Shown here piece by piece: positions 5,625 to 58,505 of a stretch of DNA of 58,505 nucleotides. Source of the DNA: Minisyncoccota bacterium (GTDB lineage Bacteria; Patescibacteriota; Minisyncoccia; UBA6257). Every line of letters begins with the position of its first letter. Within the stretch, counting starts at the first letter, position 1. The stretch is from positions 1-58,505 of the forward strand of contig JAQTTC010000001.1 of assembly GCA_028711005.1 (NCBI GenBank). Direction: 5' to 3'. Made by a program: the position numbers and the translations under genes. The notes below the pieces were generated by a model. It was given only the letters and a program-made list of their open reading frames with translations, was not told the origin of the DNA and ran no database searches.

Positions 5625-5816
5625 TTAAGAAATTGTTTTTGAGAGACGCTTGCGACAAGTTGAACAAACTAAAATCCTTTTTCCATCAGGCATCCTGAAC
5701 CATTGTAAATTAGGTTTTTGATGATGACGAGAAACAGGATTATAAGCAGAGCGTACTTTTTTATAATGCGTTGCTTTTTGGTATGTTTTTCCGCAAATTG
5801 AACAAATTCGAGCCAT
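5625..5816 (-). CDS. rpmB: 50S ribosomal protein L28 (Cys-containing form)
   Basis: 'MARICSICGK...PNLQW' is the L28 signature. Two CxxC pairs are present (CSIC, CSTC). Confidence 0.85.
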   Translation of the reverse strand: MARICSICGKTYQKATHYKKVRSAYNPVSRHHQKPNLQWFRMPDGKRILVCSTCRKRLSKTIS

Positions 5817-16017: not shown

Positions 16018-16590
16018 ATGACTTATCATAATACAAAAAATAATTCCATTTTGATCATTGGACTAGGAAATCCTGAACCATCTTATAAAAACAATCTTCA
16101 TAATATTGGCTATCATTTTATTGATTATTTAGCAAATAAATGGCAAGGAAATGATTGGAAAGAAAATAAGAAATGCTTTGCCAATATTAGCTTAATTAAT
16201 ATTAATGATCAGAATATAATTTTAGCTAAATCCTTAATTTTTATGAACGAATCAGGAAAAGCTTTAAACTTACTTAAAAAATTTTATTCTTTAACTCTTC
16301 AAAATATTTATATTGCTCACGATGATACTGATATCAGTATAGGTAATTTTAAAATAAGTTATGGCCGAGGATCAGCTGGTCATAAAGGAATTGAATCTAT
16401 TATTAAGCATCTACGATCAAAGAATTTTAATCGAATAAGAATCGGGGCTCGCTCTCCTTTCTTGAAAAATAAAAAAGCAGAGGAATTGGTTCTTAAAAAT
16501 TTAAGCCCTCAAGAAAATCAAGCAATAAAAGATATTTTTCCTATAATAGAGGAACAATTAAAAAATATTTATTTTTGTAAAGATAAATAA
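16018..16590 (+). CDS. pth: Peptidyl-tRNA hydrolase
   Basis: 'LIIGLGNPEPSYKNNLHNIGY', 'FMNESGKA', 'HDDTDISIG' and 'GSAGHKGIESI'. Confidence 0.85.
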   Translation: MTYHNTKNNSILIIGLGNPEPSYKNNLHNIGYHFIDYLANKWQGNDWKENKKCFANISLININDQNIILAKSLIFMNESGKALNLLKKFYSLTLQNIYIAHDDTDISIGNFKISYGRGSAGHKGIESIIKHLRSKNFNRIRIGARSPFLKNKKAEELVLKNLSPQENQAIKDIFPIIEEQLKNIYFCKDK

Positions 16591-17254
16591 AAAGACGAAA
16601 AACCAAAAGCGATAGAATACTTAAATACAAAACGCTTAAGGAAAGATAATTTAATAAAAAGAAAAACTCTGAATTAATTAAAATTAAAACTAAAAAAGAG
16701 AGCCAAAAATTTAAAAAAGAAATATTCAAGAAAAGAAAATACAAATAAGAAAAAAGCGTTAATCCTAGCATATATATTAAAAAGCTAACACCAAAAGAAT
16801 AATTTAGGAAAAAATAAGAACCATAAGAAATTACTATCCAGCCTAAAAAAAGATAGTAAAAAATAATTGCTCGCCAGTATTTTGATTTTTCTGAAGAAGC
16901 AAAAGAAATTAATTTATTACCATTGCCCCGAAAGCTATGGTTTTTTATTTCATCTGAAAAACATCTTTTCCAAAAAAAGAATAAAAATAATAAAATGAAA
17001 ATTATAGCCCACAATGGCTTAATAAAAGAATTTATAATATTAGCCTCTAAAAAACATAAAAAAATAAAATAAAAATTAACCCAAGACATTCCTAGAAGGG
17101 CTTTCCAAAGAAAAATTATTAATAAACCAATTAAAATAGCGTAAACAAAGCGCAAAGAAAAAATAACACTCCCCAAAAGAAAACTAGAGTAAATAAGAAA
17201 AAAACTAAATGCCTTAAGTTCTAAAGAAGAAAAAAAATTCTTTATCTTTGACAT
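16541..17254 (-). CDS. Polytopic membrane protein, unknown function
   Basis: 237-aa ORF rich in F/L/I with at least six hydrophobic segments. Its start overlaps the clpB stop by 13 nt. No recognisable motif. Confidence 0.4.
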   Translation of the reverse strand: MSKIKNFFSSLELKAFSFFLIYSSFLLGSVIFSLRFVYAILIGLLIIFLWKALLGMSWVNFYFIFLCFLEANIINSFIKPLWAIIFILLFLFFFWKRCFSDEIKNHSFRGNGNKLISFASSEKSKYWRAIIFYYLFLGWIVISYGSYFFLNYSFGVSFLIYMLGLTLFSYLYFLFLNISFLNFWLSFLVLILINSEFFFLLNYLSLSVLYLSILSLLVFRLFIYLYKNKYFLIVPLL

Positions 17255-19869
17255 AAACTTAAGCTATCTTTTTTAAAACCAACTGAGATCTTTTTTCCTT
17301 CTTTTATCTCTCCAATAATAATTTCATCAGCTAGATGATCAAGAATCTCCTTCTCAATCAATCTTTTTAAAGGACGAGCTCCATAATCTGGACTAAATCC
17401 TTTTTGAGCTAAATATTTTTTAGCTTCTCGAGTTAATTGAATAAAAATCTTTTTATCAGACAACCGATGATTTATTTTTTCTATTTGTAAGTCTACTATC
17501 TTTTCTATATCGCGACTGCTTAATGAATTAAAGATAATAATTTCATCTATTCGATTAAGAAACTCTGGGCGAAATCTTTCTGTTAAAGATTCATGGATTT
17601 TCTCTTTTAATTCTTCCTTCTGCTGCTCTAATCTATTTTTCTTGTTCATAGTAAAACCTAAAGAAGCCATTTCGTGAATATATTCACCTCCTAAGTTAGA
17701 AGTCATAATAATAATCGTATTCTTAAAATTAATTGCTCTTCCTTTACCATCAGTTAAACGACCATTATCTAGTATTTGCAAAAGAATATTAAACACTTCT
17801 GGATGCGCTTTTTCTATCTCATCAAATAAAATCAAACTATATGGTCTATGTTTTACTGCTTCGGTTAATTGACCACCGGTTTCATAGCCAACATATCCAG
17901 GAGGCGAGCCAATCAAGCGAGCAACACTGTGTTTTTCCATATACTCTGACATATCAACTCTAATCATTGCTTTTTCATTAGAGAACATAAATTCTGCTAA
18001 AGCTCTAGCAAGCTCTGTTTTCCCTACTCCAGTTGGACCTAGAAACATAAATGATCCAATTGGTCTTTCTTCTTCTGAAATACCAGCTCTAGCCCTTTTA
18101 ATTGCTCTACTTATTGCATGAACAGCTTCTTCTTGACCAACAACTCTTTTTGTTAACTCCTTTTCTATTCGCATTAATTTTTTGCTTTCTTCCTCTAGCA
18201 TTCTTGCCACTGGAACCCCTGTCCAATTAGACACCACTCTAGCAATATCTTCAGCCATTACTTCTTCCTTTAAAAACCTTTCTTTCTCAGGCATTTTTTC
18301 TAATTCTCTTTCTTTCGCTTTAAGCATTTTTTTTAATTGAGGAATTTTTCCATAATTAATCTCTGCTACCTTATCTAATTGGCCTGCTTTTTCATACTCT
18401 TGAGATTCTTTGTATAATTGTTCAATGTTTTTCTTTATCTTTCCTACTTCAGTAAACACCTCTTTTTCTTTCTGCCATCTAAGATTAAGCACTTTGAATT
18501 TTTTCTTTAATGCTTTCAATTCATTTTCTAACTTTTTATTTTGATAATTCTTTTTCTTTTTTCCATTGTCCCTTTTTATTGCTTGCTGCTCTAGCTCTAA
18601 AGATTTTATTTTATTTTTCAAATCACTAATCAGCAAAGGAATACTACCAATCTCTAAGCTTAAGACTGAAGCAGCTTCATCTATTAAATCAATTGCTTTG
18701 TCTGGTAAAAAACGTGAAGTAATATAACGACTCGATAACTGAACTGCTGTTACGATAGCTTCCTCAGAAATTTTTAAACCATGATGAGTTTCATATCTAG
18801 ATTTTAATCCTCTTAAAATTTCTATTGCTTCTTCAAAAGACGGTTCTTCTACAGAAATCGGCTGAAAACGACGCTCTAAAGCAGAATCTTTTTCAATATA
18901 TTCTCTAAAGTCTTTAAAAGTAGCCGCTCCTATCGCTCTTAGCTCCCCTCTGGCTAAAGCTGGCTTTAATAAATTTGAAGCATCAATTGCCCCTTCAGCT
19001 GCCCCAGCTCCAACTAAAGTATGAACCTCATCAATGAATATAATAATATCTCCAGCTTTTTTAATTTCTTTTAATAAATTCTTTAATCTTTCTTCAAATT
19101 CTCCACGGAAACGAGTACCAGCTATTAAAGCCCCTAAATCTAAAGAAATAATTCTTTTATTGACTAGGCTCTCAGGAACTTCACTAGAAGAAATTCGCTG
19201 AGCCAACCCTTCAACAATAGCTGTTTTTCCAACTCCTGCTTCTCCAATTAAAATTGGATTATTTTTAGTACGCCGAGATAAAATTTGCATTACTCGCCTT
19301 AATTCTTCTTCTCTACCAATAACTGGATCAAGCTTATTCTCTTCAGCTAGTTGAGTTAAATCTTGAGTATATTTTTCTATTGCTGTTCCTGCTTCTTGAA
19401 ATTCATCAACTATTTTTTCTCCTTTGGTATATTGATTAAGAGCTTCTAGAAAATTATCTTTTTTAATATTGTATTTATTAATTAATTCTTGGGTGGAATT
19501 TTTAGTTGCTAGAATTCCATAAAATAAATATTCAGGTGAGATATATTCATTCTTGTCTTCAATAGCTTTTTTTGCTGCTACTTCTACCATTTGCATCATT
19601 TCTTGAGAAAGATACATTTGACCAAAACCACTACCAACATTAAAGATTCTTGGTAATTTTATAATCTCCTCTAATGTTTCCTTGAGAAGGCTACCAACAT
19701 CAACATCCATTATTTGTTCTAATATCTCTCTTACTCCAGAGCCACTTTCATCTAATAAGACATATAAAAGATGAAGAGCGCGCATCTCTCCTTGATTTCT
19801 TTCTAAAGCCATCTGTTGAGCTTTTTCTATTGCCGACTGAGCTTTTGAAGTGAATCTTCCTAAAGACAT
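17242..19869 (-). CDS. clpB: Chaperone disaggregase ClpB
   Basis: Clp_N repeats. D1 '[15 protein letters not shown]' and '[14 protein letters not shown]'. Long M-domain coiled coil. D2 '[15 protein letters not shown]', '[11 protein letters not shown]' and 'GARPLKRLI'. Confidence 0.95.
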
Positions 19870-36833: not shown

Positions 36834-38006
36834 ATGAAAGATAAAGCAAAAATAACAACCATCAAAGACTTTTATCAAGAAATGAATAGCCTTAAAAAAA
36901 CTAGAGAATTGATTTTAAATTTATTAATTCAAGACAAAAAACCTCCAAAAAAGCTGATTGACTCACTTAACTCTCATTTGAAAAGATTAAAATCTATTAA
37001 AAAAGAAAACGGTAATTTTATTCTTGTTTCTAATCAAATTAATTTAAGTTTTAAACTCTATTATGAAATTTCAGAATTAGAAAAAGACATTATTTTCTTA
37101 AAAAAAGGAGAGAAAGCTCTTTTAGAATATTTTAAAAAAATCCATAAAAATTTTAAAAAACAAAGTCAAAAATTAATAAATTATCTTAAAAACCAAAAAA
37201 TTGATTTTTTCATCACAGATAGAGATGGAACAATTAATAATTATTGTGAAACTTATTTATCATCTATCCAATCTGTTTATAACGCATTTTTTCTCTATAA
37301 ATTTTCAGAAAAAATTAAAAAATCAATAATTTTAACTTCAGGTCCCCTTAATGATTTTCAAAAAGTAAATATTCTTTCAAAGGGTAATTTTATTTTTGCA
37401 GGCTCTAAAGCAAGAGAATTCAAATATTTAAAAGGAAAAATACATCGCCTTAAAATTCCTAAAAACGAAAAAAAGCTTATTAATTCCCTGGAAAAATCAA
37501 TAAGAAAAGTTCTTCTTAAAAAAAGATTTAGAATATTTAAGTTTATAGGTTCAGGTTTTCAAAAAAAGCATGGGGAAATTACAATTGCCAGGCAAAATAT
37601 ACTTAATTCAATTCCCAGAAAACAAAGCCTTGAGTTTCTTTCTAAAATTAAACAGATTGCAAAAAACCTAGACCCAAGTCAAAGGTTTTTAGAAATTAAT
37701 GATACAAAACTTGATATTGAAATATTACTTAAATCTAATTTTAAAACTTTTGACAAAGGAAAAGGACTTATGTTTTTATTAAATAAATCAAACATTCATC
37801 TTTCTAATGTTTTAATTTCTGGAGATGCTAGCTCAGATTTATCATTATTAGAATCATCAAAAGCCTTAAGCAAAAAAGTATATTGTATATTCGTAACTCA
37901 AAACAAGCAGCTGAAAACTAAGATTAAAAAAATACATAAAAATTCAATTTTTGTTTCAAGCCCTGACGTCTTGATATATAGTATTCACCAAATTTCAAAA
38001 ACCTAA
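36834..38006 (+). CDS. HAD-IIB phosphatase, trehalose-phosphatase-like, with a ~120-aa Lys-rich N-terminal extension
   Basis: HAD motif I 'FITDRDGTI' (D129/D131), motif II 'LTSGP', motif III 'FDKGKG' and motif IV 'ISGDASSDL'. The spacing resembles the OtsB/TPP family. Substrate not determinable by eye. Confidence 0.5.
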   Translation: MKDKAKITTIKDFYQEMNSLKKTRELILNLLIQDKKPPKKLIDSLNSHLKRLKSIKKENGNFILVSNQINLSFKLYYEISELEKDIIFLKKGEKALLEYFKKIHKNFKKQSQKLINYLKNQKIDFFITDRDGTINNYCETYLSSIQSVYNAFFLYKFSEKIKKSIILTSGPLNDFQKVNILSKGNFIFAGSKAREFKYLKGKIHRLKIPKNEKKLINSLEKSIRKVLLKKRFRIFKFIGSGFQKKHGEITIARQNILNSIPRKQSLEFLSKIKQIAKNLDPSQRFLEINDTKLDIEILLKSNFKTFDKGKGLMFLLNKSNIHLSNVLISGDASSDLSLLESSKALSKKVYCIFVTQNKQLKTKIKKIHKNSIFVSSPDVLIYSIHQISKT

Positions 38007-38008
38007 TT

Positions 38009-41000
38009 ATGGATTTTAAAGGAGCAATATTCGATTTAGATGGAGTTATCACTGATACTGCAAAAATACATGCCGAAGCATGGAAACTTGTCTTTGATGA
38101 ATTTTTAGAAAATTATAATAAAAATCACTTTGTTCCCTTTGATAAACAAAAGGATTATTTAAAGTATGTTGATGGAAAACCAAGAAAAAAAGGAGCCACA
38201 GATTTTCTTGAATCAAGAAATATCTTTTTAGGCCCAGGAAAGCCTTTTGACCTTTCATCAAAAAAGACGATTTGGGGTATTACTAATAAAAAAAATCATA
38301 TCTTTCTTAAATTACTTAATAAGAAAAAACCGATCGTTTATGAAAATGCTATTTCTTTAATAAAAAAATTAAAGGCAAAAAAAATAAAAGTAGGAGTTAT
38401 TTCCTCAAGTAAAAATTGCAGAAGAATTTTAAAAACATGCAATTTAACATCTGTATTTGACATAATTGTCGATGGAAAAACTTCTGAACAAATAGGTCTT
38501 TCTGGCAAACCAGATCCAGATATCTTTTTATATGCTTCTAGAAAACTCAAACTAAACCCTGAAGATTGTATTATTTTTGAAGATGCTTTTTCAGGGGTTG
38601 AAGCAGGCAAAAAAGGCAACTTTGGTTTAGTAATAGGAATCTCAAGAAATAATAATATTAACTTAAAAAGTGCTCATTTTATTGTTAAAAGCCTTAAAGA
38701 ATTATCTACTAATAAATTAAATAGACTATTTAAAAAAGAAAATGAAAAGAATAATTGGAATTTAAATTATTACTATTTTATCCCGGAAGAAGAAAAATTA
38801 AGGGAAGCCTTAACAACAACAGGAAACGGATTTATGGGAACCAGGGGATGCTTCGAAACCCAAAGTGATTCACAAAATCATTATCCAGGCTGCTATATAG
38901 CAGGAATTTATAATACTCTTAAAACAAAAATTGGTAAAAAGGAGTCTATAAATAACTCTCTTGTTAATTGTCCTAACTGGCTTTTAATTAAAATAAAAAT
39001 TAATGGTGATTTTATAGATCCTTTTAAGCAAGAAATTATTGAATATGAAAAAAAACTTAATTACAAAAAAGCAATTCTTTGTCATAAAATAATTTTTAAA
39101 GATAGAGAGAATAGAATAACTAAGATTACTAGTAAAAGGTTTTCTTCTATGAAAAATCCTCATTTATCTATTCTTGATTTTAAGATAACTCCCTTAAATT
39201 ACTCCGGAGAAATATCTCTTCAATCATTAATTGATGGAAGTATAGAAAATAATAATGTAGCTAGATATCGAGGACTAAAATCAAAACATCTTAAAATAGT
39301 TTCTACTAAAAAAATAAATAACTTGTTAACGCTTCATGCTAAAACAAGTCAATCTAAATATGATTTAATTTTCTCTGCAAAAAATATTACAAAAAAATAT
39401 ACAGAATCTAAATTTATAAAATCAGCAAAGTTAATCGGTGAAGAATTTCTCTACCATCAAAAAAGAAATCAAACAATTAATCTAAAGAAAATTATTTCAA
39501 TTTTCACTTCAAGAGAAAGCGCTAATCCACAAAAAGATTCTTTAAATTTACTTAAAAAAACTAGCTCTACTAATTCAGCTTTTCAATCTCATTTAAAACA
39601 ATGGAAAAAATTATGGGAAAAATGCGATCTTTTTATTAAAGGAGATTTGTTTTCACAAAATGCATTAAGATTTCATATTTACCATCTTTTATCAACTTAT
39701 TCTCCAAATGTTATCGGCTTAGATGTCAGTGTTCCTGCTAGAGGCCTTACTGGAGAATCATATCATGGACATATTTTCTGGGATGAAATTTATATCACTC
39801 CCTTTTTCTATCATCATTTTCCAGAAGTATCAAAAGAATCTTTAATTTATCGGTATAATCGACTTAAACAAGCCCAAGAATACGCTAAAAAAAATGGATA
39901 TAAAGGAGCAATGTACCCATGGCAAAGCGCAGATACTGGAAAAGAAGAAACTCAAAAAATACATTTGAATCCAATGGATAATTCTTGGGGACCTGATTTT
40001 AGTCGTCACCAGCGACACGTCTCTATCGCTATTTTTTATAATTTTTATAAATATATCTATCATGCAAAAGATTTACAATTTTTGCATGATTATGGAGCTG
40101 AAGTAATGATTGAAATTGCAAGGTTTTGGGAAAGCATTGCTGAATATGATAAAAAAACAGATAAATACCATATCAAAGGAGTTGTTGGACCTGATGAATT
40201 TCACGAAAAATATCCATGGTCAAATAAACCAGGCTTCATAGATAACGCCTATACAAATATTATGGTTTCTTGGTTATTACAAAAAACTGCTGTTTTAAGC
40301 GAACAACTGCCTAAAAATTTAATTAAAAAATTTAAGCTTACAAAAGAAGAGATTAATAAATGGAAAGGCATAAGTAAGAAAATAAATGTTGTGGTCAAAA
40401 ATGAAATTATTATGCAATTCAAAGATTTTGATAAGCTAAAAAAAATAAATTTTGAGAAGTATAAGAAAAAATATTCAAACATTGAAAGAATGGACAGAAT
40501 TTTAAAAGCAGAAGGAAAGTCCCCTAATGAATATAAAGTAATAAAGCAACCTGATGTTTTAATGATTTTTTATGTTTTAGAATTTCAAGAAGCAATAAAA
40601 ATTTTAAGAAAGCTTGGAATCAAAATAAAAAAGCCAAAAAGCTTTATTAAAAAAAACTATAACTACTATGCTTCGATAACAACCCATGGTTCCACTTTAA
40701 GTAAGTTTATTCACAATGCAATACTCTCTAATCTAAAGCAAGACAATCATATGGTCTGGAAATGGTTTAAAAACGCTCTAGAAAGCGATATTTACGACTC
40801 TCAAAGAGGAACAACAAAGGAAGGGATCCATTGTGGGCTGATGGCAGGGACTATTGAAATAGTAAGAAAATATTTTGCTGGAGTTAAGACTCATAAAAAA
40901 GGGCTTTCTCTTAGACCTTGGCTTCCTGCTCACTGGAAAAAATTAAGATTTAGAATTGAACATCAAAAAAAACAATATCTTTTTGATTTTAATTTACAAG

Positions 41001-41125
41001 ATAAGAGATTAAAGATTACCCTTGAAAAAGGGAGAGGAGACTCTTCTATTGAATACCAAAGAAATAAATATTTACTCAAAAAATCAAAAACTAAATCTAT
41101 TAAATTGAAGAAATGCAATTTTTAA
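38009..41125 (+). CDS. Fusion protein: beta-phosphoglucomutase (HAD-IA) + glycoside hydrolase family 65 disaccharide phosphorylase
   Basis: N-terminus 'AIFDLDGVITDT' (D9/D11), 'SSSKN', 'GKPDPDIFL' and 'FEDAFSGVEAGKKG' indicate beta-PGM. From about aa 245 the sequence is GH65: 'TTGNGFMGTRG', 'ARGLTGESYHGHIFWD', 'GAMYPWQS' and the catalytic-acid context 'VVGPDEFHE' (E730, codon 40196-40198). Starts 2 nt after the upstream HAD gene. Confidence 0.85.
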   Translation: MDFKGAIFDLDGVITDTAKIHAEAWKLVFDEFLENYNKNHFVPFDKQKDYLKYVDGKPRKKGATDFLESRNIFLGPGKPFDLSSKKTIWGITNKKNHIFLKLLNKKKPIVYENAISLIKKLKAKKIKVGVISSSKNCRRILKTCNLTSVFDIIVDGKTSEQIGLSGKPDPDIFLYASRKLKLNPEDCIIFEDAFSGVEAGKKGNFGLVIGISRNNNINLKSAHFIVKSLKELSTNKLNRLFKKENEKNNWNLNYYYFIPEEEKLREALTTTGNGFMGTRGCFETQSDSQNHYPGCYIAGIYNTLKTKIGKKESINNSLVNCPNWLLIKIKINGDFIDPFKQEIIEYEKKLNYKKAILCHKIIFKDRENRITKITSKRFSSMKNPHLSILDFKITPLNYSGEISLQSLIDGSIENNNVARYRGLKSKHLKIVSTKKINNLLTLHAKTSQSKYDLIFSAKNITKKYTESKFIKSAKLIGEEFLYHQKRNQTINLKKIISIFTSRESANPQKDSLNLLKKTSSTNSAFQSHLKQWKKLWEKCDLFIKGDLFSQNALRFHIYHLLSTYSPNVIGLDVSVPARGLTGESYHGHIFWDEIYITPFFYHHFPEVSKESLIYRYNRLKQAQEYAKKNGYKGAMYPWQSADTGKEETQKIHLNPMDNSWGPDFSRHQRHVSIAIFYNFYKYIYHAKDLQFLHDYGAEVMIEIARFWESIAEYDKKTDKYHIKGVVGPDEFHEKYPWSNKPGFIDNAYTNIMVSWLLQKTAVLSEQLPKNLIKKFKLTKEEINKWKGISKKINVVVKNEIIMQFKDFDKLKKINFEKYKKKYSNIERMDRILKAEGKSPNEYKVIKQPDVLMIFYVLEFQEAIKILRKLGIKIKKPKSFIKKNYNYYASITTHGSTLSKFIHNAILSNLKQDNHMVWKWFKNALESDIYDSQRGTTKEGIHCGLMAGTIEIVRKYFAGVKTHKKGLSLRPWLPAHWKKLRFRIEHQKKQYLFDFNLQDKRLKITLEKGRGDSSIEYQRNKYLLKKSKTKSIKLKKCNF

Positions 41126-43213: not shown

Positions 43214-43558
43214 ATGGCTAGAGTAAAAAGAGGTACCATTGCAAACAAAAGAAGAAAAAATCTTTTAAAAAATACTAAAGGATTTAGATATGGTAGGAAA
43301 ACTAAATACCGTTTAGCTAAAGAAGCCTTATTACATGCATGGACAAAAGCCTTTAAAGATAGAAAAATTAAAAAAAGAGAAGCCAGAAAACTTTGGCAAG
43401 TAAAAATTAATGCTGCCCTAAAAGCAGAAGGATTTAATTATAATAAATTTATAAAAGGATTAAAAGATAAAAAGATTAATTTAGATAGAAAAATTTTAGC
43501 TGAATTAGCTGAAAAACATCCTTCTATTTTTAAACAAATAACAAAGGAGGTATTCTAA
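43214..43558 (+). CDS. rplT: 50S ribosomal protein L20
   Basis: 'MARVKRGTIANKRRKNLLKNTKGFRYGRK' and 'RKLWQVKINAA'. Confidence 0.95.
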   Translation: MARVKRGTIANKRRKNLLKNTKGFRYGRKTKYRLAKEALLHAWTKAFKDRKIKKREARKLWQVKINAALKAEGFNYNKFIKGLKDKKINLDRKILAELAEKHPSIFKQITKEVF

Positions 43559-46107
43559 ATATTATTTATTTTTGTCTTCAATTCTCCTTCTTCTAAGGTA
43601 AAAAATATTTGGCTATTAGAGCCAATTTTTTCTTTTAAAATGGCTCTGGCTAAATTATCTTTTATATAATGTCTAATAACGGAATCTAGGGGTCTTGCTC
43701 CAAAAATTGGATTGTACCCTAATTGAGCTAATTTCTCGACTACTCCTTCGCCAAAAGACAGCTCAATCTTTTTGTTTTTCATTAAGGACTCAGATAAAGC
43801 CCTTAATTTTAATTTTACAATTTCTGTAAGATGCTCTTGGGTTAAAGGTCTAAAAACAACTACTTCATTAAATCTATTTAAAAGTTCTGGCTTAAAGAAA
43901 TTAGTTAATTTATTTTTTAATACATCTGAAAGTTTTTGAGGTTCAGTTCCTTTTTCTATTTCGTCTTTAATAAAATCTGATAAAGCATTAGAAGTCGCAA
44001 TAATGATCGTATTTGTAAAATCAATTGTTTCTCCAATGTTATCTGTCAACCTTCCTTCATCAAAAAGAGCTAAGAAAATATTTAAAACATCTTGATGAGC
44101 TTTTTCAAATTCATCTAAAAGAATTAGAGAAAAAGGATTACTTTTTACCGCCTCTGTTAAAACTCCTCCACTTTCTCCTTCAGGACTACCAATAAAACGA
44201 TATATGCTTCTTTTATCCTGGTATTCAGCCATATCAAAACGAATCATTGTTTTTTCACTACCAAAATAAATTTTGGCTAAAGTTTTAGCTAATTCAGTCT
44301 TTCCTACTCCAGTTGGACCTACAAAAAGAAAAACTGAAATTGGCTTATTAATATTAACTAACCCTGTACGATATTGCCTTAGAGCCGAAGACACTAATTG
44401 AACCGCATGCTCTTGATTAATTAATTGTTCGTGAATTAACTTTTCTAAATTTAATAATTTTTCTTTTTCTTCTTCGGAAGAAATATCTAGAGGAATCTGA
44501 GTTTTCAAACTTACTAAATCCACAATATCTTGCTCTTTAACTATTTTTTTACCTTGACGACGAGCGCCTTCAAGGGCTTCTGTTAAAAGTGATTCTGCTG
44601 AAGAAGGTAAAGGAATAGAGCCCAAAAATCTCTGAGCCAAATTAACAGCTCTCTTTATTGCTTTAAAACTAATTTTTATCCTTGTTTTACGTTGTAGCTC
44701 TAAAGAACGAAATGATAAAAAAGTGATTGATTCTTCAGTAGTTAATTCCTTAACTCTAATAATTTCAAAGTTTTCTTTAACAATTGAATCAGTTTCTAGA
44801 TAGCGACGATAATCTTCTGGTGTTGCAGCTGCAATAATTGGAACCCAAGAAGCATTTACCAAAGATTGAAAAGTATCTAAAGCATTAAACCCTCCTTTCT
44901 GAGCTAAGGATTTATAATTATGAAATTGAGGTAGATAAAGAACAATATCTCTATTCACTAAAAGTTCTTTAGTGATTTTAGTTAATCGATTGAATACCTC
45001 TAAAGGCTCTTGAATGTCTTCAAAAAGAGAAGAAAGGGGAAGACTAATAAGACGATAATCCCGTAACCCTGCAGGTATTCTATCCTTTGACAAGTTTAAA
45101 GCTAGATAAGAAACAAGTGTATCCTTACCTACTCCTGCAGGACCAACCAAAAGAATGTTTCTTTTGCCTTGCCTATTTAAAATATCTACCAAGCTCTGGT
45201 ATTCTTGCTGATGGCCAATCATAACTCCAATTTTTAATTTTAAAGCCAATTCTGTAAAATCAGTTCCATAAAGATCTAAAAATGGAGTTGGCCTAGAAGT
45301 AAAAGATCTATTAACTTTAATTCTTTTAGGTTGAAAACTAATTTCTTTCTTATCAGCCAAACCTTTTAAAACTTCCATGCCTTTTTCATTATAAAGACGA
45401 TTCATTTCAAGCGCTGTTCTTAAATCGTTTTTATCAAGATGAAAAAGATTAAAAACACTAATTACTTGTGGATCTTGAGATAAATACAAAGAAAGAATTA
45501 AAGCCTCTGTTTTAATTGAATTTCTTTTAAGGCTCTGTGCTTCAATAAACGCTCCATAACAGATTTTTTCTAAAAATGCTTGGTAGTCTTGTTTTGATAT
45601 TTTTTTTCTTTCTTTTAATTTTTCTTGATTAAGACATTTTTCCATTTCTTGAATTTCTGGAGAAAAAATATCTAGAAAAGCCAATGATTCAATTACTTCT
45701 CTTTGAAAAATAAGAATGGACAAAAGAGCTGCCGGTAAAGATAAATCATTATTAATGGCAACATTTTTTGTCTCTAAAAGAATACTCTTTGCTTTTGGTG
45801 AAAGAAATTGAGCTAGATTAATTTCTTTCTTATTTAAATTTTTTTCTGATAAAGAAAGATCAGCAAAATTTTGTTTAATAAAAACATAAACAAAAAACAA
45901 AAAGAAAATAATTGCTAAATTATACCAACGTTCTATTCGAAGAACTAACAAAAAAAAGAAAAAAATCAATCCTAAATAAAGAAAGGTATTAAAGATTACT
46001 CTATATAAAAATCCTTGCCAAATAGACCAGAAAAAAGAATCATCTTTAAAAACAAAAATAGATTCTTTATTTATTTTTTTATTAATATTGTTTTGTTTTT
46101 TATTCAT
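43555..46107 (-). CDS. Membrane-anchored Clp/Hsp100-like double AAA+ protein with a degenerate D1
   Basis: N-terminal TM helices (about aa 25-78) followed by Clp_N-like repeats. D1 has 'LLVGPAGVGKDTL', with Asp in place of the Walker A Ser/Thr, and 'IVLYLPQFH' where ClpB has 'ILFIDEIH'. D2 is intact: '[14 protein letters not shown]', 'LILLDEFEKAH', 'ATSN', 'GARPL'. Confidence 0.75.
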   Translation of the reverse strand: MNKKQNNINKKINKESIFVFKDDSFFWSIWQGFLYRVIFNTFLYLGLIFFFFLLVLRIERWYNLAIIFFLFFVYVFIKQNFADLSLSEKNLNKKEINLAQFLSPKAKSILLETKNVAINNDLSLPAALLSILIFQREVIESLAFLDIFSPEIQEMEKCLNQEKLKERKKISKQDYQAFLEKICYGAFIEAQSLKRNSIKTEALILSLYLSQDPQVISVFNLFHLDKNDLRTALEMNRLYNEKGMEVLKGLADKKEISFQPKRIKVNRSFTSRPTPFLDLYGTDFTELALKLKIGVMIGHQQEYQSLVDILNRQGKRNILLVGPAGVGKDTLVSYLALNLSKDRIPAGLRDYRLISLPLSSLFEDIQEPLEVFNRLTKITKELLVNRDIVLYLPQFHNYKSLAQKGGFNALDTFQSLVNASWVPIIAAATPEDYRRYLETDSIVKENFEIIRVKELTTEESITFLSFRSLELQRKTRIKISFKAIKRAVNLAQRFLGSIPLPSSAESLLTEALEGARRQGKKIVKEQDIVDLVSLKTQIPLDISSEEEKEKLLNLEKLIHEQLINQEHAVQLVSSALRQYRTGLVNINKPISVFLFVGPTGVGKTELAKTLAKIYFGSEKTMIRFDMAEYQDKRSIYRFIGSPEGESGGVLTEAVKSNPFSLILLDEFEKAHQDVLNIFLALFDEGRLTDNIGETIDFTNTIIIATSNALSDFIKDEIEKGTEPQKLSDVLKNKLTNFFKPELLNRFNEVVVFRPLTQEHLTEIVKLKLRALSESLMKNKKIELSFGEGVVEKLAQLGYNPIFGARPLDSVIRHYIKDNLARAILKEKIGSNSQIFFTLEEGELKTKINNI

Positions 46108-55501: not shown

Positions 55502-55975
55502 TCAATCAAATTTTTCAGGAATATTAAATTCTAATATCCTTTCCTTGTTTCCGACTACCTTAAATTTTATTGTAAAACGATGCTTTGATAAAACTTCTTT
55601 GATTCTATCTCCCCATTCAACAAAAATTAAATTCTCTGGATCCTCAGTAACCTCAAGAAAACCTAACTCTTTAATGTCTTTAATTTTTTTAAGACGATAA
55701 CAATCTAAATGCCATAGTGTTTTAAAAGGTTTTTTCCGAATCAAAGGAAAGCTTTTCATTATTAAAAAAGTAGGACTAAAAATCCTTTCTTTTAATTGCA
55801 AAAATTTAGCTACTCCTTTAAGAAATTCTGTTTTACCGCTTCCTAATGATCCTTCTAGAGAAACAATTAAAGCTTCCTGCTCTTTGAAATTTCTTTGCCT
55901 TAAAACAGATTCAGTAAAAAAGCTGGCTATTTTTTGAGTTTCTTCTGGGCTTTCACTAATAACTTTGATTTTCAT
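55502..55975 (-). CDS. tsaE: tRNA t6A37 biosynthesis ATPase TsaE (YjeE)
   Basis: 'LEGSLGSGKTEFLKGVAKFL', 'SPTFLIM', 'WHLDCYRL' and 'VEWGD'. Confidence 0.85.
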   Translation of the reverse strand: MKIKVISESPEETQKIASFFTESVLRQRNFKEQEALIVSLEGSLGSGKTEFLKGVAKFLQLKERIFSPTFLIMKSFPLIRKKPFKTLWHLDCYRLKKIKDIKELGFLEVTEDPENLIFVEWGDRIKEVLSKHRFTIKFKVVGNKERILEFNIPEKFD

Positions 55976-56049
55976 TAATTTATTTTATCATGAATTTATG
56001 CTTTTCTAAAGAACACTTGAATGATATAATAAAATTATATAATAAAAAC

Positions 56050-58505
56050 ATGGAAGATCTATCAAAAAAAAGAGAGCAAAGAATTAAAGCTCTCTGGCAA
56101 GAATCTAGAGAGAGAACTGCCCAAGAATTAGCTCAGAAACAAAATTATTTATATATTGATTTGAGAAAGGCGCCTATTGAAACTAGCGCTCTTGCTTATA
56201 TTCCTGAAAAAGCAGCTAAAGAAGCAAATGTTGCTGTTTTTCAAAAAGTAGGAAATACAATTAAAATTGCTCTTTCTGATCCTTCAAATACCAAGGCTTT
56301 ACAAATTATTGATGATTTTAAAAAGAAAGGGCACAAAGTAAGCATTTTTGTCGTCACTGAAGAAGGATTAAACCAGGCATGGAAAAATTATGCTTTTATT
56401 CATCCACGTTTAAAAGAATTATCAAATTTTATAGAAGTGACTGATACTGAACCAGTAGAATTTAATGATCTTCATGAAAAAATATTATCTTCTCCTGCAA
56501 AAGAAGTTACGCTTTTAGTTTCACTGATCTTAAAGTCTGCTGTCATTATAGATGCATCTGATATTCATCTTGAACCTCAAGAAGAGCATGCTTTAATTCG
56601 CTTTCGAATAGATGGAATTCTTTATGATGTCTGTGAAATAGAAAAAGCTAAATATCGTGTTATCAATCAAAGACTTAAATTGCTTGCTGGTTTAAAATTA
56701 AATATTGAAAATATATCCCAAAATGGGCGTTTTACTATTCAAAATGATGAGGATTTTATTGATGTTCGTGTCTCAAGCTTGCCTAGCCCTCAAGGAGAAT
56801 TTTTAGTCTTCAGGCTTTTAAATCCAAGGCGAGCAGCTTTAGGATTAAAAGATCTTGGAGTAAGTGAGAAAAATATTGAAACCTTTAACCATATTTTATC
56901 AGCCCCTAATGGAATGATTCTTGTAACTGGACCAACTGGCTCAGGAAAAACAACAACTCTTTATGCTTTTTTAAAAAAGAAAATTTCTCCAGGAATAAAA
57001 ATTATTACTTTAGAAGATCCAATTGAATATCAAATTTCCGGAGTAAACCAAACTCAAGTATCAAAGAAATATGACTTTGCTAATGGTTTAAAGTCAGTCC
57101 TCCGTCAAGATCCAGATGTTCTTATGGTTGGCGAAATAAGAGACTCGGAAACAGCTAAAACCGCTATCCAAGCATCTTTAACTGGTCATTTAGTCTTTTC
57201 TACTCTTCACACTAATGAAGCTTGCGGTACTATTGCTAGATTATTAGAATTAGGAGTTGAGCCCTCTGTTATTTCAAATTCATTAAAATTGATTGTTGCC
57301 CAAAGACTAGTCAGGCGTCTTTGCCCTTACTGTAGAGAAAGATATAAACCAACCCCAGAAGTCAAAGAACAATTAATTACAGCTTTAAGTGTTCTCTCTC
57401 CAAAAAGTAAGGTGAAAGTCCCTAAAGATATTCCTTATCTTTTTAGAGCAAAAGGATGCGAAAAATGTAACTGGCTAGGATATAAAGATCAAATCGGAAT
57501 TTTTGAACATTTTAAAATGACTCCTAGAATCATTAAGGCAATAAAAGAAGGAGCTGATCAAAATGAATTAAGAACAATTGCTATTGACGAAGGAATGATT
57601 CCACTTTTCCATGATGGCTTAATAAAAGCTATCGAAGGCGTTACTTCTTTAGAAGAAGTTCTTAGAGTTGCTGGAGACATCTCTTATGTTCAAGATTTAT
57701 ACAAAGACCTTTTTTCTCAAATCTTAGTCCGTGGAGTTAAAGTAAATAAACAAGAACAAAAACAAATAGAAAAATTACTTGAAGAGAATAAACCTCTTGA
57801 TTCTTTATTAAAAGACAAATCTTCTGAAAAACAAATTGCCTTAACATTAGCTACTGCTTTAAAATCGAGAGCAACTGATGTTCACTTTGAACCTGAAGAA
57901 CAAAAAAGCCAAGTTCGACAAAGGATTGATGGTGTTCTCCATCCTTTAACGTCTTTTAATCTGAAAGAACATCCTAAAATTATTAATGAATTAAAAACAA
58001 TTAGTGGATTAAAAACAGAAGAAACACAAAGAGTCCAAGAAAGCAGATTCCGTTTAATTCTTCCTGACCAATCATTTGATTTAAGGCTTTCAATTATTCC
58101 TGGAGGATATGGGGAAAGCGCTTCTTTAAGAATCTTAGGAGGAGAAACTTCTCTATTAGACTTAGAAAAATTAGGGTTCCTTCCAACCCAAAAAGAAAAA
58201 ATAGAAAAAGTTTTAGAAAAAAAGATTGGTTTAATTTTGGTTGCTGGGCCTACCTCTTCTGGAAAAACTACAACATTGTTTTCTCTACTTAAAAAGCTAT
58301 CCAGCCCTAATATCAAAATCATCACTGTTGAAGATCCAATTGAATATCGCTTACCTGGTATTATTCAAACTCAAGTTGATGAAGGAAAAGACTATACTTT
58401 TGCTAAAGCTCTTCGTAGCTTACTTCGTCAAAACCCTAATATTTTCTTAATTGGAGAGATTAGAGATAAAGAAACAGCTCAACTTGTTTGGGAAGCCTCT
58501 TCAAC
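56050..58505 (+). CDS. pilB: Type IV pilus / type II secretion ATPase (PilB/GspE family), tandem double-ATPase fusion, 3'-truncated by the window edge
   Basis: Translated codon by codon from ATG 56050 with no stop to 58505 (818 codons). Module 1: 'ASDIHLEP...RFRIDG', Walker A 'GPTGSGKTT' (56929-56955), 'LEDPIEY', 'VLMVGEIRD', 'TGHLVFSTLHTN', CPYC...CEKC. Module 2: 'TDVHFEP...RQRIDG', 'GPTSSGKTT' (58246-58272), 'VEDPIEY', 'IFLIGEIRD'. Confidence 0.85.
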   Translation, partial: MEDLSKKREQRIKALWQESRERTAQELAQKQNYLYIDLRKAPIETSALAYIPEKAAKEANVAVFQKVGNTIKIALSDPSNTKALQIIDDFKKKGHKVSIFVVTEEGLNQAWKNYAFIHPRLKELSNFIEVTDTEPVEFNDLHEKILSSPAKEVTLLVSLILKSAVIIDASDIHLEPQEEHALIRFRIDGILYDVCEIEKAKYRVINQRLKLLAGLKLNIENISQNGRFTIQNDEDFIDVRVSSLPSPQGEFLVFRLLNPRRAALGLKDLGVSEKNIETFNHILSAPNGMILVTGPTGSGKTTTLYAFLKKKISPGIKIITLEDPIEYQISGVNQTQVSKKYDFANGLKSVLRQDPDVLMVGEIRDSETAKTAIQASLTGHLVFSTLHTNEACGTIARLLELGVEPSVISNSLKLIVAQRLVRRLCPYCRERYKPTPEVKEQLITALSVLSPKSKVKVPKDIPYLFRAKGCEKCNWLGYKDQIGIFEHFKMTPRIIKAIKEGADQNELRTIAIDEGMIPLFHDGLIKAIEGVTSLEEVLRVAGDISYVQDLYKDLFSQILVRGVKVNKQEQKQIEKLLEENKPLDSLLKDKSSEKQIALTLATALKSRATDVHFEPEEQKSQVRQRIDGVLHPLTSFNLKEHPKIINELKTISGLKTEETQRVQESRFRLILPDQSFDLRLSIIPGGYGESASLRILGGETSLLDLEKLGFLPTQKEKIEKVLEKKIGLILVAGPTSSGKTTTLFSLLKKLSSPNIKIITVEDPIEYRLPGIIQTQVDEGKDYTFAKALRSLLRQNPNIFLIGEIRDKETAQLVWEASS

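What the first reader, a model, noticed from the sequence alone, without database searches (positions are those of the whole stretch)
56050..58505. Two complete PilB/GspE secretion-ATPase modules fused in one reading frame
The ORF track skips this gene because it runs off the window. Read by hand, the frame starting at ATG 56050 stays open for 818 codons. Residues 1-~540 form a full PilB/GspE protomer. They include an N-terminal GSPII/MshEN-like region, an N2 domain (ASDIHLEP..RFRIDG), Walker A at aa 294-301, the Asp box LEDPIEY, Walker B VLMVGEIRD, the His box TGHLVFSTLHTN and the tetracysteine CPYC(425-428)...CEKC(470-473). After a linker of about 50 aa rich in Lys, Glu and Gln (about 57690-57830), a second N2 domain and ATPase core begin. 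This second module has TDVHFEP..RQRIDG, RFRLILP..DLRLSIIP, Walker A GPTSSGKTT at aa 733-741, VEDPIEY and IFLIGEIRD. Both modules keep the catalytic Glu and Walker Lys, so neither looks like a dead copy. Characterised PilB/PilT/GspE motors are hexamers of single-ATPase protomers. A covalent tandem would instead build the ring from three dimers with hard-wired two-fold alternation. I do not know of a described tandem PilB. Together with the ComEC genes at 7.5-9.8 kb, it may belong to the DNA-uptake or pilus apparatus that reduced-genome bacteria depend on.
Basis: partly seen in the sequence, partly recalled or inferred. Interest (0 to 1): 0.75.

Follow-up and report, generated by a model that had tools for sequence, protein, structure and literature searches.

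The report
Tandem double PilB-like ATPase, Patescibacteria
The gene is real: it fuses two complete, apparently active PilB/GspE-type motor ATPase units in one protein, is conserved across many Parcubacteria-group genomes, and lies away from pilus genes, which suggests a ring built from three double subunits instead of six single ones.

Summary
Observation confirmed. From ATG 56050 the frame stays open for 818 codons to the window end. Near-identical contigs give a 964-aa protein. It reads N1/MshEN, then N2+ATPase core, an 18-aa junction, a 46-aa pre-N2 segment, then a second N2+ATPase core.

It is not an assembly artefact. Three independent assemblies match the window over 2606 nt with no indel. 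At least 119 homologue clusters (41-99% identity) and 57 non-redundant metagenome loci have the same architecture.

Walker A Lys, Asp box, Walker B Glu, both His-box histidines, N2 arginines and the four Cys are invariant in both modules. The junction length is fixed.

Module 2 forms one clade (bootstrap 49/60), indicating a single internal duplication.

The main correction concerns context. None of the 57 loci has pilC or a pilin gene nearby, whereas operon-type Patescibacteria pilB genes do (12/13 and 11/13). The tandem groups with a Patescibacteria-wide "orphan" single-module PilB-like paralogue that sits between tsaE and ruvB.

Literature searches found no description and the PDB holds no tandem chain. 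The trimer-of-dimers ring is plausible and would match the proposed trimeric two-domain platform, but it is untested. Verdict: new variant of a known kind.

The parts
56050..58505 (+). Tandem PilB/GspE-like ATPase gene. The first 818 of 964 codons lie in the window; the stop is about 439 nt beyond the window end.
   Evidence: Open frame. Full-length 99%-identical protein P0001 on three independent contigs. 98.2% nt identity with 0 gaps over 2606 nt.
56152..56385 (+). N1 / GSPII (MshEN) domain, aa 35-112. Present only in module 1.
   Evidence: Pfam PF05157, 31.1 bits against a cut-off of 23.1. Mean pairwise identity of the N1 region is 0.35 across 119 homologues.
56425..56556 (+). Pre-N2 segment of module 1, aa 126-169 (strand, helix, helix).
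   Evidence: AlphaFold2 secondary structure E147-149, H158-167, H173-186 in P0001 numbering, which is window numbering plus 20.
56557..56859 (+). N2 domain of module 1, aa 170-270. Carries the conserved N2 arginines (RFRIDG and others).
   Evidence: R206, R228, R260 and R275 (P0001 numbering) are invariant and R204 is nearly invariant in 60 homologues. T2SSE stretch 153-539.
56860..57678 (+). ATPase core (CTD) of module 1, aa 271-543. Walker A 294-302, Asp box 321-327, Walker B 358-365, His box 378-389, Cys4 at 425/428/470/473.
   Evidence: The Walker A Lys, Walker B Glu, both His-box histidines and all four Cys are invariant in 119 homologues; the Asp-box acidic residues are essentially invariant (Glu in 117-118 of 119, the rest alignment gaps; Asp 109, Asn 9). 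Foldseek TM 0.9 to PilB/PilF.
57679..57732 (+). Inter-module junction, aa 544-561. Fixed length, conserved Y..LY..L.SQ.L.RG pattern.
   Evidence: 18-19 aa in all 119 homologues, mean identity 0.43. This is the only stretch of reduced confidence between the modules: pLDDT 56-71 in the full model and about 60 in the sub-construct.
57733..57870 (+). Pre-N2 segment of module 2, aa 562-607.
   Evidence: 46-49 aa in all homologues. pLDDT 86-90, strand plus helices mirroring module 1.
57871..58176 (+). N2 domain of module 2, aa 608-709 (TDVHFEP, RQRIDG).
   Evidence: R643, R645, R686, R699 and R714 (P0001 numbering) are invariant. 42% identity to module 1.
58177..58505 (+). ATPase core (CTD) of module 2, aa 710-818 in the window. 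Walker A 733-741, Asp box 760-766, Walker B 799-806. His box and Cys4 lie beyond the window.
   Evidence: In full-length P0001 the His box TGHLVLSTIHTN and CPYC...CPKC follow; both histidines and all four Cys are invariant in 119 homologues.
55502..55975 (-). tsaE, divergently transcribed. It is the conserved upstream neighbour of the tandem family and of its single-module relatives.
   Evidence: Pfam TsaE on the identical gene in L001. TsaE is present in 22/57 tandem loci and 14/16 orphan single-module loci.

Best explanation
This is a genuine single polypeptide (964 aa) made of two complete PilB/GspE-type secretion-ATPase modules. Module 1 is N1-N2-CTD. Module 2 is N2-CTD. A junction of fixed length connects them.

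Shown here:
- Both modules keep every residue known to be needed for ATP binding and hydrolysis, and for zinc binding, across a family that has diverged to about 41% identity.
- The family arose once, by internal duplication, within a Patescibacteria-specific clade of 'orphan' PilB-like ATPases.
- Members of that clade are not encoded with pilC, pilM or pilin genes. They sit in a conserved housekeeping neighbourhood with tsaE divergent upstream and often ruvB-yebC-ruvC downstream.

Inferred:
- Like all characterised relatives it works as a ring motor. Three chains would give a six-module pseudo-hexamer in which module 1 and module 2 alternate.
- Such a ring has true three-fold symmetry and only three N1 domains.
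- It would dock onto a PilC/GspF-type platform encoded elsewhere. That platform is itself an internally duplicated protein, proposed to act as a trimer with six cytoplasmic domains, so each module type would always face the same platform half.

Which filament it serves (type IV pilus, competence pilus or something else) is not known.
For: - Reading frame and motifs.
- Not an artefact: three independent assemblies carry the intact ORF. Against the window there are 47 mismatches and 0 gaps over 2606 nt; within the 818 codons, 33 of the 43 differing codons are synonymous.
- Family size: at least 119 clusters at 90% identity, 957-1030 aa, 96-100% query coverage. About 13 clear full-length tandem representatives (978-1018 aa) among the best 150 of the 50%-identity library, which holds 15,051 hits at E<=1e-30. 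75 intact tandem ORFs among 88 loci scanned, 57 of them non-redundant.
- Both modules under selection: the Walker A Lys, Walker B Glu, both His-box histidines, all four Cys and the conserved N2 arginines are invariant in both modules, and the Asp-box acidic residues essentially so. Mean pairwise identity is 0.53/0.60 for N2/CTD of module 1 and 0.49/0.54 for module 2.
- Fixed geometry: the junction is 18-19 aa and the pre-N2 segment 46-49 aa in all 119 homologues.
- Single origin: module 2 is monophyletic with no intruders, bootstrap 49/60. The clade holding both modules plus 16 single-module Patescibacteria proteins has bootstrap 58/60.
- Orphan context: PilC 0/57, pilin-like ORFs 0/57, other T2SSE genes 0/57 and PilM 1/57 in tandem loci. 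Canonical Patescibacteria pilB loci show PilC 12/13, pilin-like 11/13 and PilM 7/13; Fisher P = 1e-12 and 4e-11.
- Shared synteny with single-module clade members: TsaE 14/16 and RuvB 13/16 there; TsaE 22/57 and RuvB 12/57 (8 immediately downstream on the same strand) in tandem loci.
- Fold: each module matches PilB/PilF/GspE with TM about 0.9.
- Ring logic: published structures show the N-terminal domain of one chain packing on the CTD of the next. An AlphaFold-based model proposes a hexamer docking on a platform trimer with six cytoplasmic domains (PMC10191384, read).
Against: - No oligomer was modelled or measured. AlphaFold2 on the full chain gave pTM 0.54, and on the CTD1-junction-N2(2) construct pTM 0.65 with junction pLDDT about 60. 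Neither shows a defined packing of the modules.
- No platform partner was identified, and no genome was surveyed completely, so I cannot say whether these organisms also carry an operon-type pilB.
- Sequence conservation shows selection on the catalytic residues, not activity.
- Module 1 is not monophyletic in the neighbour-joining tree (0/60). Secondary loss of module 2 in some lineages, or poor resolution, cannot be excluded.
- RuvB linkage in the tandem family as a whole is not significantly above canonical loci (11/44 vs 2/13, P = 0.71), and it is absent in the window's own lineage.
Confidence: 0.6

Rival explanations
1. Two adjacent paralogous genes were wrongly joined by a missed stop, a frameshift or a chimeric assembly.
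For: The window alone cannot exclude this. A few metagenome contigs do show interrupted versions: L103 has many stops, and L111, L117, L121 and L144 each have one in-frame TGA.
Against: The same uninterrupted ORF occurs in three independent assemblies with 0 gaps relative to the window. It also occurs in at least 119 homologue clusters and 75 metagenome loci. The junction has conserved sequence and invariant length. The interruptions seen in a few contigs lie inside module 1, not at the module boundary.
Confidence: 0.01
2. Six chains assemble into two coaxial stacked hexameric rings, one of module 1 and one of module 2, as in ClpB, p97, NSF or KaiC. This would replace the planar ring of three chains.
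For: Most known tandem P-loop ring ATPases stack their two rings (my own knowledge). The 18-aa junction plus 46-aa pre-N2 segment could span between rings. AlphaFold2 gave no confident packing of N2(2) on CTD(1).
Against: In this superfamily the ring is held together by N2 of one chain packing on the CTD of the neighbour (PMC10191384). A covalent CTD1-N2(2) link fits that packing unit naturally. No stacked T2SSE ring appears among PDB matches. The proposed trimeric platform with six cytoplasmic domains fits a 3x2 ring.
Confidence: 0.2
3. Only one module is the working motor. The other is a nucleotide-binding, regulatory or structural position, as with the alternating alpha and beta subunits of F1-ATPase.
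For: An unrelated tandem T2SSE protein, P0136 (T2SSF-like N-terminus plus two T2SSE domains), has Lys replaced by Thr in the Walker A of its first module. This shows such degeneration does occur. Module 2 evolves slightly faster, and its Walker A has Ser instead of Gly at position 4 in 82/119 homologues.
Against: In the family studied here, every catalytic residue checked (Walker A Lys, Asp-box acidic residues, Walker B Glu, both His-box histidines, N2 arginines) is invariant or essentially invariant in both modules over divergence down to 41% identity.
Confidence: 0.12
4. It does not drive a pilus-type filament at all. The orphan clade has a different job, linked to DNA processing or uptake, as hinted by neighbours such as ruvB/ruvC, recG, polA, fpg, uvrA, translin and RNase HII.
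For: No pilC, pilin or pilT gene lies near any of 57 tandem or 16 single-module clade members. RuvB is immediately downstream on the same strand in 13/16 single-module and 8/57 tandem loci. Other DNA-repair genes are frequent neighbours. In Saccharibacteria a pilus locus includes recA/recX (PMC11623550).
Against: Patescibacteria genomes are small and rich in information-processing genes, so such neighbours are expected by chance. The neighbourhood also holds tsaE, tRNA synthetases and dnaA/dnaN. Both modules keep the PilB/GspE-specific Cys4 zinc site and module 1 keeps the N1 domain, features tied to platform or PilM/GspL-type partners. Motor ATPases such as pilT/pilU are often encoded away from pilus operons (PMC6668835).
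Confidence: 0.15

Closest known systems
PilB, type IVa pilus extension ATPase (e.g. Geobacter metallireducens PilB 5TSG/5TSH; Thermus thermophilus PilF core 5IT5/5OIU)
   Same: Each module has the N2 + CTD fold (Foldseek TM about 0.9, 40-42% identity). Each has Walker A/B, Asp box, His box and the Cys4 zinc site. Module 1 has an N1/MshEN domain.
   Different: There are two ATPase cores per chain instead of one. Scores fall below the TIGR02538 equivalog cut-off (661.9 for the whole protein, 443.5 and 343.7 per module, against 675.65). The gene is not encoded with pilC, pilM or pilins (0/57 loci).
GspE/EpsE, type II secretion ATPase (4PHT, 4KSR, 1P9R)
   Same: Best NCBIfam model by score and the top Foldseek hits. 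Same motif set.
   Different: The whole-protein score of 694 passes the 630.25 cut-off only because two modules add up. Each module alone scores 454 or 361. No T2SS genes lie nearby. The family's named members are Patescibacteria, reported to lack the outer-membrane secretin PilQ and a Gram-negative-type envelope (PMC6744442).
Single-module 'orphan' PilB-like ATPases of Patescibacteria (clade defined here: L007, L009, L010, L012, L014, L019-L021, L023-L025, L027-L029, L032, L045)
   Same: Same clade in the tree (bootstrap 58/60). Same neighbourhood, with tsaE upstream and ruvB downstream. Same absence of pilus genes.
   Different: They have one ATPase module (433-710 aa). The tandem form adds a second N2+CTD after a fixed junction, and so far it appears only under Parcubacteria-group names (Paceibacterota, Minisyncoccia, Moranbacteria).
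Long PilB/PilF-type proteins with repeated N1 (GSPII/MshEN) domains
   Same: Similar overall length of about 1000 aa, with a PilB-type core.
   Different: Their length comes from three to four MshEN domains in front of one T2SSE domain (P0238 and P0245), not from a second ATPase.
Tandem-module ring ATPases (ClpB/Hsp104, p97, NSF, KaiC) and alternating rings (F1 alpha3beta3, Pex1/Pex6)
   Same: Two P-loop ATPase modules per functional unit, with possible division of labour between non-equivalent sites. This is an analogy drawn from my own knowledge.
   Different: These belong to different fold families (AAA+, RecA-like). Whether the protein here stacks or alternates its modules is unknown.
PilC/GspF platform protein
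   Same: It is also an internally duplicated protein, proposed to act as a trimer presenting six cytoplasmic domains to the ATPase ring (PMC10191384; PMC6668835). The tandem ATPase would mirror that 3x2 logic.
   Different: It is a membrane protein, not an ATPase, and is unrelated in sequence. No platform gene was found near the tandem gene.
P0136-type protein (T2SSF-like domains + two T2SSE domains, 1047 aa, high GC)
   Same: An independent example of two T2SSE domains in one chain.
   Different: It has an N-terminal T2SSF-like region, and its first module has Walker A GPTGSGTT (Lys replaced by Thr) and Asp box AEDPVQL, so that module is probably inactive. It does not belong to the family studied here.

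Membership tests
T2SSE superfamily (Pfam PF00437: PilB/GspE/PilT-type secretion ATPases) | T2SSE domain above the gathering score | tested here: met
   587.4 bits against a cut-off of 24.9, in two separate stretches.
T2SSE superfamily (Pfam PF00437: PilB/GspE/PilT-type secretion ATPases) | Walker A, Asp box, Walker B with catalytic Glu, and His box | tested here: met
   Present in both modules. The Walker A Lys, Walker B Glu and both His-box histidines are invariant in 119 homologues; the Asp-box acidic residues are essentially invariant.
PilB, type IVa pilus extension ATPase (NCBIfam TIGR02538 equivalog) | Score at or above the curated cut-off of 675.65 | tested here: not met
   Whole protein (818 aa in the window) 661.9; module 1 alone 443.5; module 2 alone 343.7.
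PilB, type IVa pilus extension ATPase (NCBIfam TIGR02538 equivalog) | N1 + N2 + CTD layout with a Cys4 zinc site | tested here: met
   Module 1 has the full layout. Module 2 has N2 + CTD + Cys4 but no N1.
PilB, type IVa pilus extension ATPase (NCBIfam TIGR02538 equivalog) | One ATPase core per chain, assembling as a homo-hexamer | tested here: not met
   There are two cores per chain. The oligomeric state cannot be tested with these tools.
PilB, type IVa pilus extension ATPase (NCBIfam TIGR02538 equivalog) | Encoded with pilus machinery genes (pilC, pilM, pilins, pilT) | tested here: not met
   PilC 0/57, pilin-like 0/57, second T2SSE gene 0/57, PilM 1/57. Positive control: canonical Patescibacteria pilB loci show 12/13, 11/13 and 7/13. 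Many T4aP systems are multi-locus, so this weakens membership but does not exclude it.
GspE, type II secretion ATPase (TIGR02533 equivalog) | Score at or above the curated cut-off of 630.25 | tested here: inconclusive
   The whole protein scores 694, but only as the sum of two stretches. Single modules score 454.4 and 361.4, both below the cut-off.
GspE, type II secretion ATPase (TIGR02533 equivalog) | T2SS gene context (GspF, GspL/M, secretin, pseudopilins) | tested here: not met
   No GspF/PilC-type gene or pseudopilin-like ORF in 57 loci or in the 58.5-kb window.
ComGA, competence pilus ATPase (NF041000) | Score at or above the cut-off of 300, and a comG operon context | tested here: not met
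   Each module scores 243.4. There is no pilin or platform neighbour.
PilT/PilU retraction ATPases (TIGR01420) | Score at or above the cut-off of 319.1, with no N1 domain and no Cys4 site | tested here: not met
   Scores are 164.1 and 149.9. Both modules carry Cys4 and module 1 carries N1.
   Neighbour-joining tree. The clade of module 1, module 2 and 16 single-module proteins has bootstrap 58/60.
   tsaE at window 55502-55975 (-). Present in 22/57 tandem and 14/16 single-module loci.
   In the window's lineage (L001) the next gene is a convergent Wzy_C/TPR gene. ruvB follows in 12/57 tandem and 13/16 single-module loci.
Stacked-ring tandem ATPases (ClpB/p97/NSF/KaiC type) | Two ATPase modules per chain forming two coaxial rings | not testable with these tools
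   Two modules are present, but the fold is T2SSE, not AAA+ or KaiC. No multimer prediction or coordinates were available. Monomer pTM was 0.54 and 0.65.

The most novel reading that the evidence does not exclude
The tandem protein assembles as a three-chain, six-module ring with true C3 symmetry. That ring pairs one-to-one with a trimeric, internally duplicated PilC-type platform. If so, the two positions that are chemically identical in ordinary PilB hexamers have become genetically distinct here. This would be a natural 'covalently linked' motor. It would show that the ATPase-platform machine is fundamentally 3x2 rather than 6x1, and it would allow site-specific dissection of the firing order. 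A further possibility is that the orphan clade, tandem form included, powers a DNA-uptake or other apparatus distinct from the operon-encoded type IV pilus of Patescibacteria.
Probability: 0.3. Interest if true: 0.8.

Novelty: new variant of a known kind. Interest (0 to 1): 0.62.

Why it matters
PilB/GspE/PilT motors are understood as rings of six identical chains. How the ring's ATP cycle couples to the membrane platform is still open, as is the ATPase-to-platform stoichiometry (PMC10191384).

A naturally fused double module, kept intact with both active sites across a large radiation, offers two things. It hints that neighbouring ring positions can take fixed, non-equivalent roles. It also gives a ready-made system in which alternate sites can be mutated independently, something that otherwise needs engineered linked constructs.

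The work also separates two PilB-like lineages in Patescibacteria: one encoded in pilus operons, and an orphan lineage near tsaE and ruvB. This matters for reading pilus and competence potential from genomes of these host-dependent bacteria.

There is a practical annotation point too. Two modules add up to pass the GspE equivalog cut-off, so such proteins can be misnamed.

Tried and rejected
- **GTDB genome scan with the full-length alignment.** Only one further tandem locus (L004) came back; the rest were ordinary pilB or pilB-pilT loci. These still served as controls.
- **Matches of 2.4-4.3 kb in other phyla.** They looked like possible tandems but turned out to be separate adjacent pilB, pilT and pilB genes.
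- **Equal 'longest contig' lengths for P0004/P0089 and P0044/P0090.** This suggested two tandem paralogues on one contig. The contigs were different.
- **A conserved upstream partner in Moranbacteria-type loci.** The upstream genes of L084 and L086 are unrelated. A 326-aa polytopic membrane protein lies upstream in 22/57 loci. It has no Pfam match and no homologue in the window.
- **AlphaFold2 for module packing.** The full chain gave pTM 0.54. A CTD1-junction-N2(2) construct gave pTM 0.65, about what the larger domain alone would give. No coordinates or PAE were available, so the result is inconclusive.
- **Promoter and terminator scan of the gene.** Counts were at shuffle level, and no internal promoter stood out before module 2.
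- **c-di-GMP-binding MshEN motif.** I saw no RLGxx-type motif in the N-terminus by eye. This was not tested formally.
- **Literature.** Seven searches and four papers read gave no description of a tandem PilB/GspE. The library does not cover most subscription journals, so absence is not proof.


Full report
**1.
Translating 56050-58503 on the + strand gives 818 codons with no stop. The mechanical ORF list omits the gene only because it runs off the window. Pfam reports two separate T2SSE stretches (587 bits in total) and an MshEN/N1 domain at aa 35-112. NCBIfam's best models are GspE and PilB, each matched in two stretches. The two halves are 42% identical over 388 aa (E = 1e-92).

**2. It is not an assembly artefact.**
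A 99%-identical full-length protein (P0001) is encoded as one ORF on three independent assemblies: one ENA contig of 248 kb and two Logan contigs. These come from a slightly different strain. Over 2606 nt they differ from the window at 47 positions with no gap. Within the 818 codons, 33 of the 43 differing codons are synonymous. From the ATG at 56050 the protein is 964 aa, the modal length of close homologues. Gene callers used an ATG 60 nt upstream and report 984 aa. By collinearity the stop lies about 439 nt beyond the window.

**3. It is a conserved family.**
The homologue search returned 120 clusters. Of these, 119 are 925-1030 aa long and cover 96-100% of the query at 41-99% identity. Sources name them only 'GspE/PulE family protein' or 'PilB', from Paceibacterota, Minisyncoccia, the Parcubacteria group and Moranbacteria.

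In the 50%-identity representative library, about 13 full-length tandem representatives (978-1018 aa) head the list of the best 150. Scores then fall to fragments and single-module proteins. The library holds 15,051 hits at E<=1e-30.

A metagenome scan with a junction-specific alignment gave 80 loci. Among the 88 loci scanned (including earlier ones), 75 carry an intact two-Walker-A ORF. Of these, 57 are non-redundant at 90% identity.

**4. Anatomy (window numbering).**
- N1: aa 1-125
- Pre-N2 segment: aa 126-169
- N2: aa 170-270
- CTD: aa 271-543
- Junction: aa 544-561
- Second pre-N2 segment: aa 562-607
- Second N2: aa 608-709
- Second CTD: aa 710-964

AlphaFold2 on the full chain gives mean pLDDT 88. 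Between the modules only the junction region falls in confidence (pLDDT 56-71). It mirrors the element that precedes N2 in module 1.

Across 119 homologues the junction is always 18-19 aa, with a conserved Y..LY..L.SQ.L.RG pattern. The second pre-N2 segment is always 46-49 aa. A connection this constant in length argues for a defined geometry and against a loose tether.

**5. Both modules look catalytically competent.**
In 119 homologues the Walker A Lys, the Walker B Glu, both His-box histidines and all four zinc-site Cys are invariant in both modules. The Asp-box acidic residues are invariant in module 2. In module 1 they depart only by alignment gaps in one or two sequences and by Asn for Asp in 9. 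The conserved N2 arginines are also invariant in both. Mean pairwise identity is 0.53/0.60 for N2/CTD of module 1 and 0.49/0.54 for module 2. Each module matches solved PilB, PilF and GspE structures with TM about 0.9. No PDB chain spans both modules.

**6. Origin.**
I built a neighbour-joining tree of N2+CTD cores. It used 60 tandem proteins split into modules plus 102 T2SSE-type ATPase ORFs (PilB- and PilT-like) from the GTDB scan. All module-2 sequences form one clade with no intruders, with bootstrap 49/60. Module 1, module 2 and 16 single-module Patescibacteria proteins together form a clade with bootstrap 58/60. Module 1 is interleaved with the single-module proteins, so its monophyly scores 0/60. 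The simplest reading is a single internal duplication of N2+CTD, including the pre-N2 segment, within a Patescibacteria-specific PilB-like lineage, followed by vertical inheritance.

**7.
The window itself is housekeeping. It carries rpoB/C-size genes, aminoacyl-tRNA synthetases, ftsA/Z, smc, two clpB-like genes and trehalose-related genes. It has no second T2SSE gene and no pilus component. ComEC lies 46 kb away.

| Neighbour within about 10 kb | 57 tandem loci (854 kb) | 13 canonical single-module pilB loci | 16 single-module loci inside the tandem clade |
|---|---|---|---|
| Second T2SSE gene | 0 | 4 (cluster member at +1; PilT inferred) | not counted |
| Pilin-like N-terminus | 0 | 11 | 0 |
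| PilC | 0 | 12 (next door) | 0 |
| PilM | 1 (eight genes away) | 7 | 0 |
| TsaE | 22 (12 immediately upstream, divergent) | 1 | 14 |
| RuvB | 12 (8 immediately downstream, same strand) | 2 (distant) | 13 (+1/+2, same strand) |
| PolA | 20 | not counted | not counted |

Sources. The canonical loci are those that fall outside the clade, among general PilBs. Fisher P for tandem against canonical is 1e-12 for PilC and 4e-11 for pilin-like ORFs.

The 16 single-module proteins inside the clade come from Saccharibacteria, Doudnabacteria, Paceibacterota, Minisyncoccia, Falkowbacteria and others. They also have RuvC (11/16), YebC (9/16) and DnaA/DnaN (10-11/16) nearby.

So the tandem gene is the positional and phylogenetic counterpart of an 'orphan' PilB-like paralogue. 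That paralogue is distinct from the operon-encoded PilB of these bacteria.

In the window's own lineage, tsaE-polA-histidine kinase-fpg lie upstream. A convergent Wzy_C/TPR gene replaces ruvB downstream.

**8. Mechanism: what is shown and what is inferred.**
Shown: two intact PilB/GspE-type modules in one chain, strong selection on both active sites, a junction of fixed length, a single origin, and an orphan context.

Inferred: ring assembly. In solved relatives the main inter-chain contact is the N-terminal domain of one chain packing on the CTD of the next. A recent AlphaFold-based model has the hexamer docking on a trimer of the internally duplicated platform protein, one cytoplasmic domain per ATPase subunit (PMC10191384).

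Three tandem chains would give a six-module ring with strict alternation, only three N1 domains, and a symmetry that matches such a platform. I rate this the most likely architecture.

I could not test it. The tool folds single chains and returns no coordinates. The pTM values (0.54 for the full chain; 0.65 for CTD1-junction-N2(2)) do not show a defined packing. A stacked double ring and a regulatory second site remain open.

The partner platform and the filament served are unknown. The frequent DNA-repair and recombination neighbours are suggestive, but they are weak evidence in small genomes rich in information-processing genes. RuvB linkage in the tandem family as a whole is not above canonical loci (11/44 vs 2/13, P = 0.71).

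**9. Comparison with known families.**
The protein belongs to the T2SSE superfamily. Neither module reaches the curated cut-off for PilB, GspE, ComGA or PilT. The whole-protein GspE score passes its cut-off only because two modules add up. Long PilB-like proteins of about 1000 aa normally owe their length to repeated N1 domains, as in P0238 and P0245. One unrelated tandem turned up, P0136. It has a T2SSF-like N-terminus and a Walker A Lys-to-Thr change in its first module. Two T2SSE domains in one chain are therefore rare but not unique.

**10. Novelty.**
Seven full-text searches and four papers, including CPR protein-family and pilus studies and two reviews of type IV filaments, gave no mention of a tandem PilB/GspE. 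One CPR study pools PilB and PilT into a single family (PMC6744442). The Saccharibacteria work describes only operon-encoded PilB1 and PilB2 (PMC11623550). The sequences are public but carry generic names.

I class this as a new variant of a known kind, of moderate to high interest. It is a natural covalently linked secretion-ATPase motor. Alongside it comes an orphan PilB-like lineage in Patescibacteria that I did not find described in the literature searched.

Noticed in passing
L111 (codon 341 of the ORF starting at 8861), L117 (codon 481 of the ORF at 841), L121 (codon 481 of the ORF at 597), L144 (codon 350 of the ORF at 2406): Four distinct metagenomic tandem genes carry exactly one in-frame TGA at the same site of module 1, just after the second CxxC (GCEKC[HN]*LGY.GQ). 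The frame stays open through module 2. Homologues have Trp (43/119) or Gly (30/119) in that column, and the window gene has TGG (W475). Other ORFs on L111 do not look TGA-recoded. Readthrough, local recoding or a decaying lineage are all possible and this is unresolved.
   Followed up: partly
P0136 (from; not in the window): A 1047-aa, high-GC protein with T2SSF-like N-terminal domains followed by two T2SSE domains. Its first module has Walker A GPTGSGTT (Lys replaced by Thr) and Asp box AEDPVQL. It is an independent tandem with a probably inactive first module, fused to a platform-type domain.
   Followed up: partly
window 56043-57010 versus 57011-58505: All 47 differences between the window and the L001-L003 strain within the gene region fall in 56043-57010 (N1, N2 and the start of CTD of module 1, about 4.9% divergence). 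The next 1.5 kb is identical. A second cluster of 16 differences lies at 53.5-54.0 kb in polA. The pattern looks like recombination tracts between strains.
   Followed up: partly
window 7504-8322 (-) and 8337-9755 (-): ComEC is split. The Competence-domain (plus DUF4131) protein and the metallo-beta-lactamase domain are separate adjacent ORFs. This fits the report that the ComEC form fused to a metallo-beta-lactamase domain is essentially absent from CPR bacteria (PMC6744442).
   Followed up: no
L123-L169 subset (22 of 57 non-redundant tandem loci, the 1003-1008-aa type), e.g. L135 gene at offset -1: A polytopic membrane protein of about 326 aa with no Pfam match lies 5-70 nt upstream on the same strand as the tandem ATPase. 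Downstream follow a Translin-family protein, a Metallophos_2 phosphoesterase and a convergent gene that looks like UvrA by sequence (not run through Pfam). The membrane protein could be a lineage-specific partner. It has no homologue in the window.
   Followed up: partly
whole-protein NCBIfam scores for window 56050-58503: TIGR02533 (GspE) scores 694 against a cut-off of 630 only because the two modules' scores add up; single modules score 454 and 361. The ComGA model likewise scores 423 against 300 for the whole protein and 243 per module. Tandem proteins can therefore be misnamed by equivalog rules.
   Followed up: yes
L001 13172-19160 (downstream of the window end): Convergent to the tandem gene are a 761-aa Wzy_C (O-antigen-ligase-like) plus TPR protein and two large PG_binding_1 proteins. 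Wzy_C-type enzymes include pilin glycosylases (my own knowledge). This was not examined.
   Followed up: no
window 17245-19869 (-) and 43555-46107 (-): There are two ClpB-type double-AAA chaperone genes (875 and 850 aa) within 27 kb in a small, 30% GC genome.
   Followed up: no
window 36834-38003 (+) and 38009-41122 (+): A trehalose-6-phosphate phosphatase is followed by a 1038-aa fusion of a HAD hydrolase domain with a complete GH65 phosphorylase (N, central and C domains). This is an unusual fused sugar-phosphorylase module for a reduced genome.
   Followed up: no
window 4981-5667 (-) and 16544-17254 (-): The nucleoside diphosphate kinase ORF is long (229 aa, TTG start), with the NDK domain matched in two stretches. 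The 237-aa ORF at 16544-17254 has no Pfam match.
   Followed up: no
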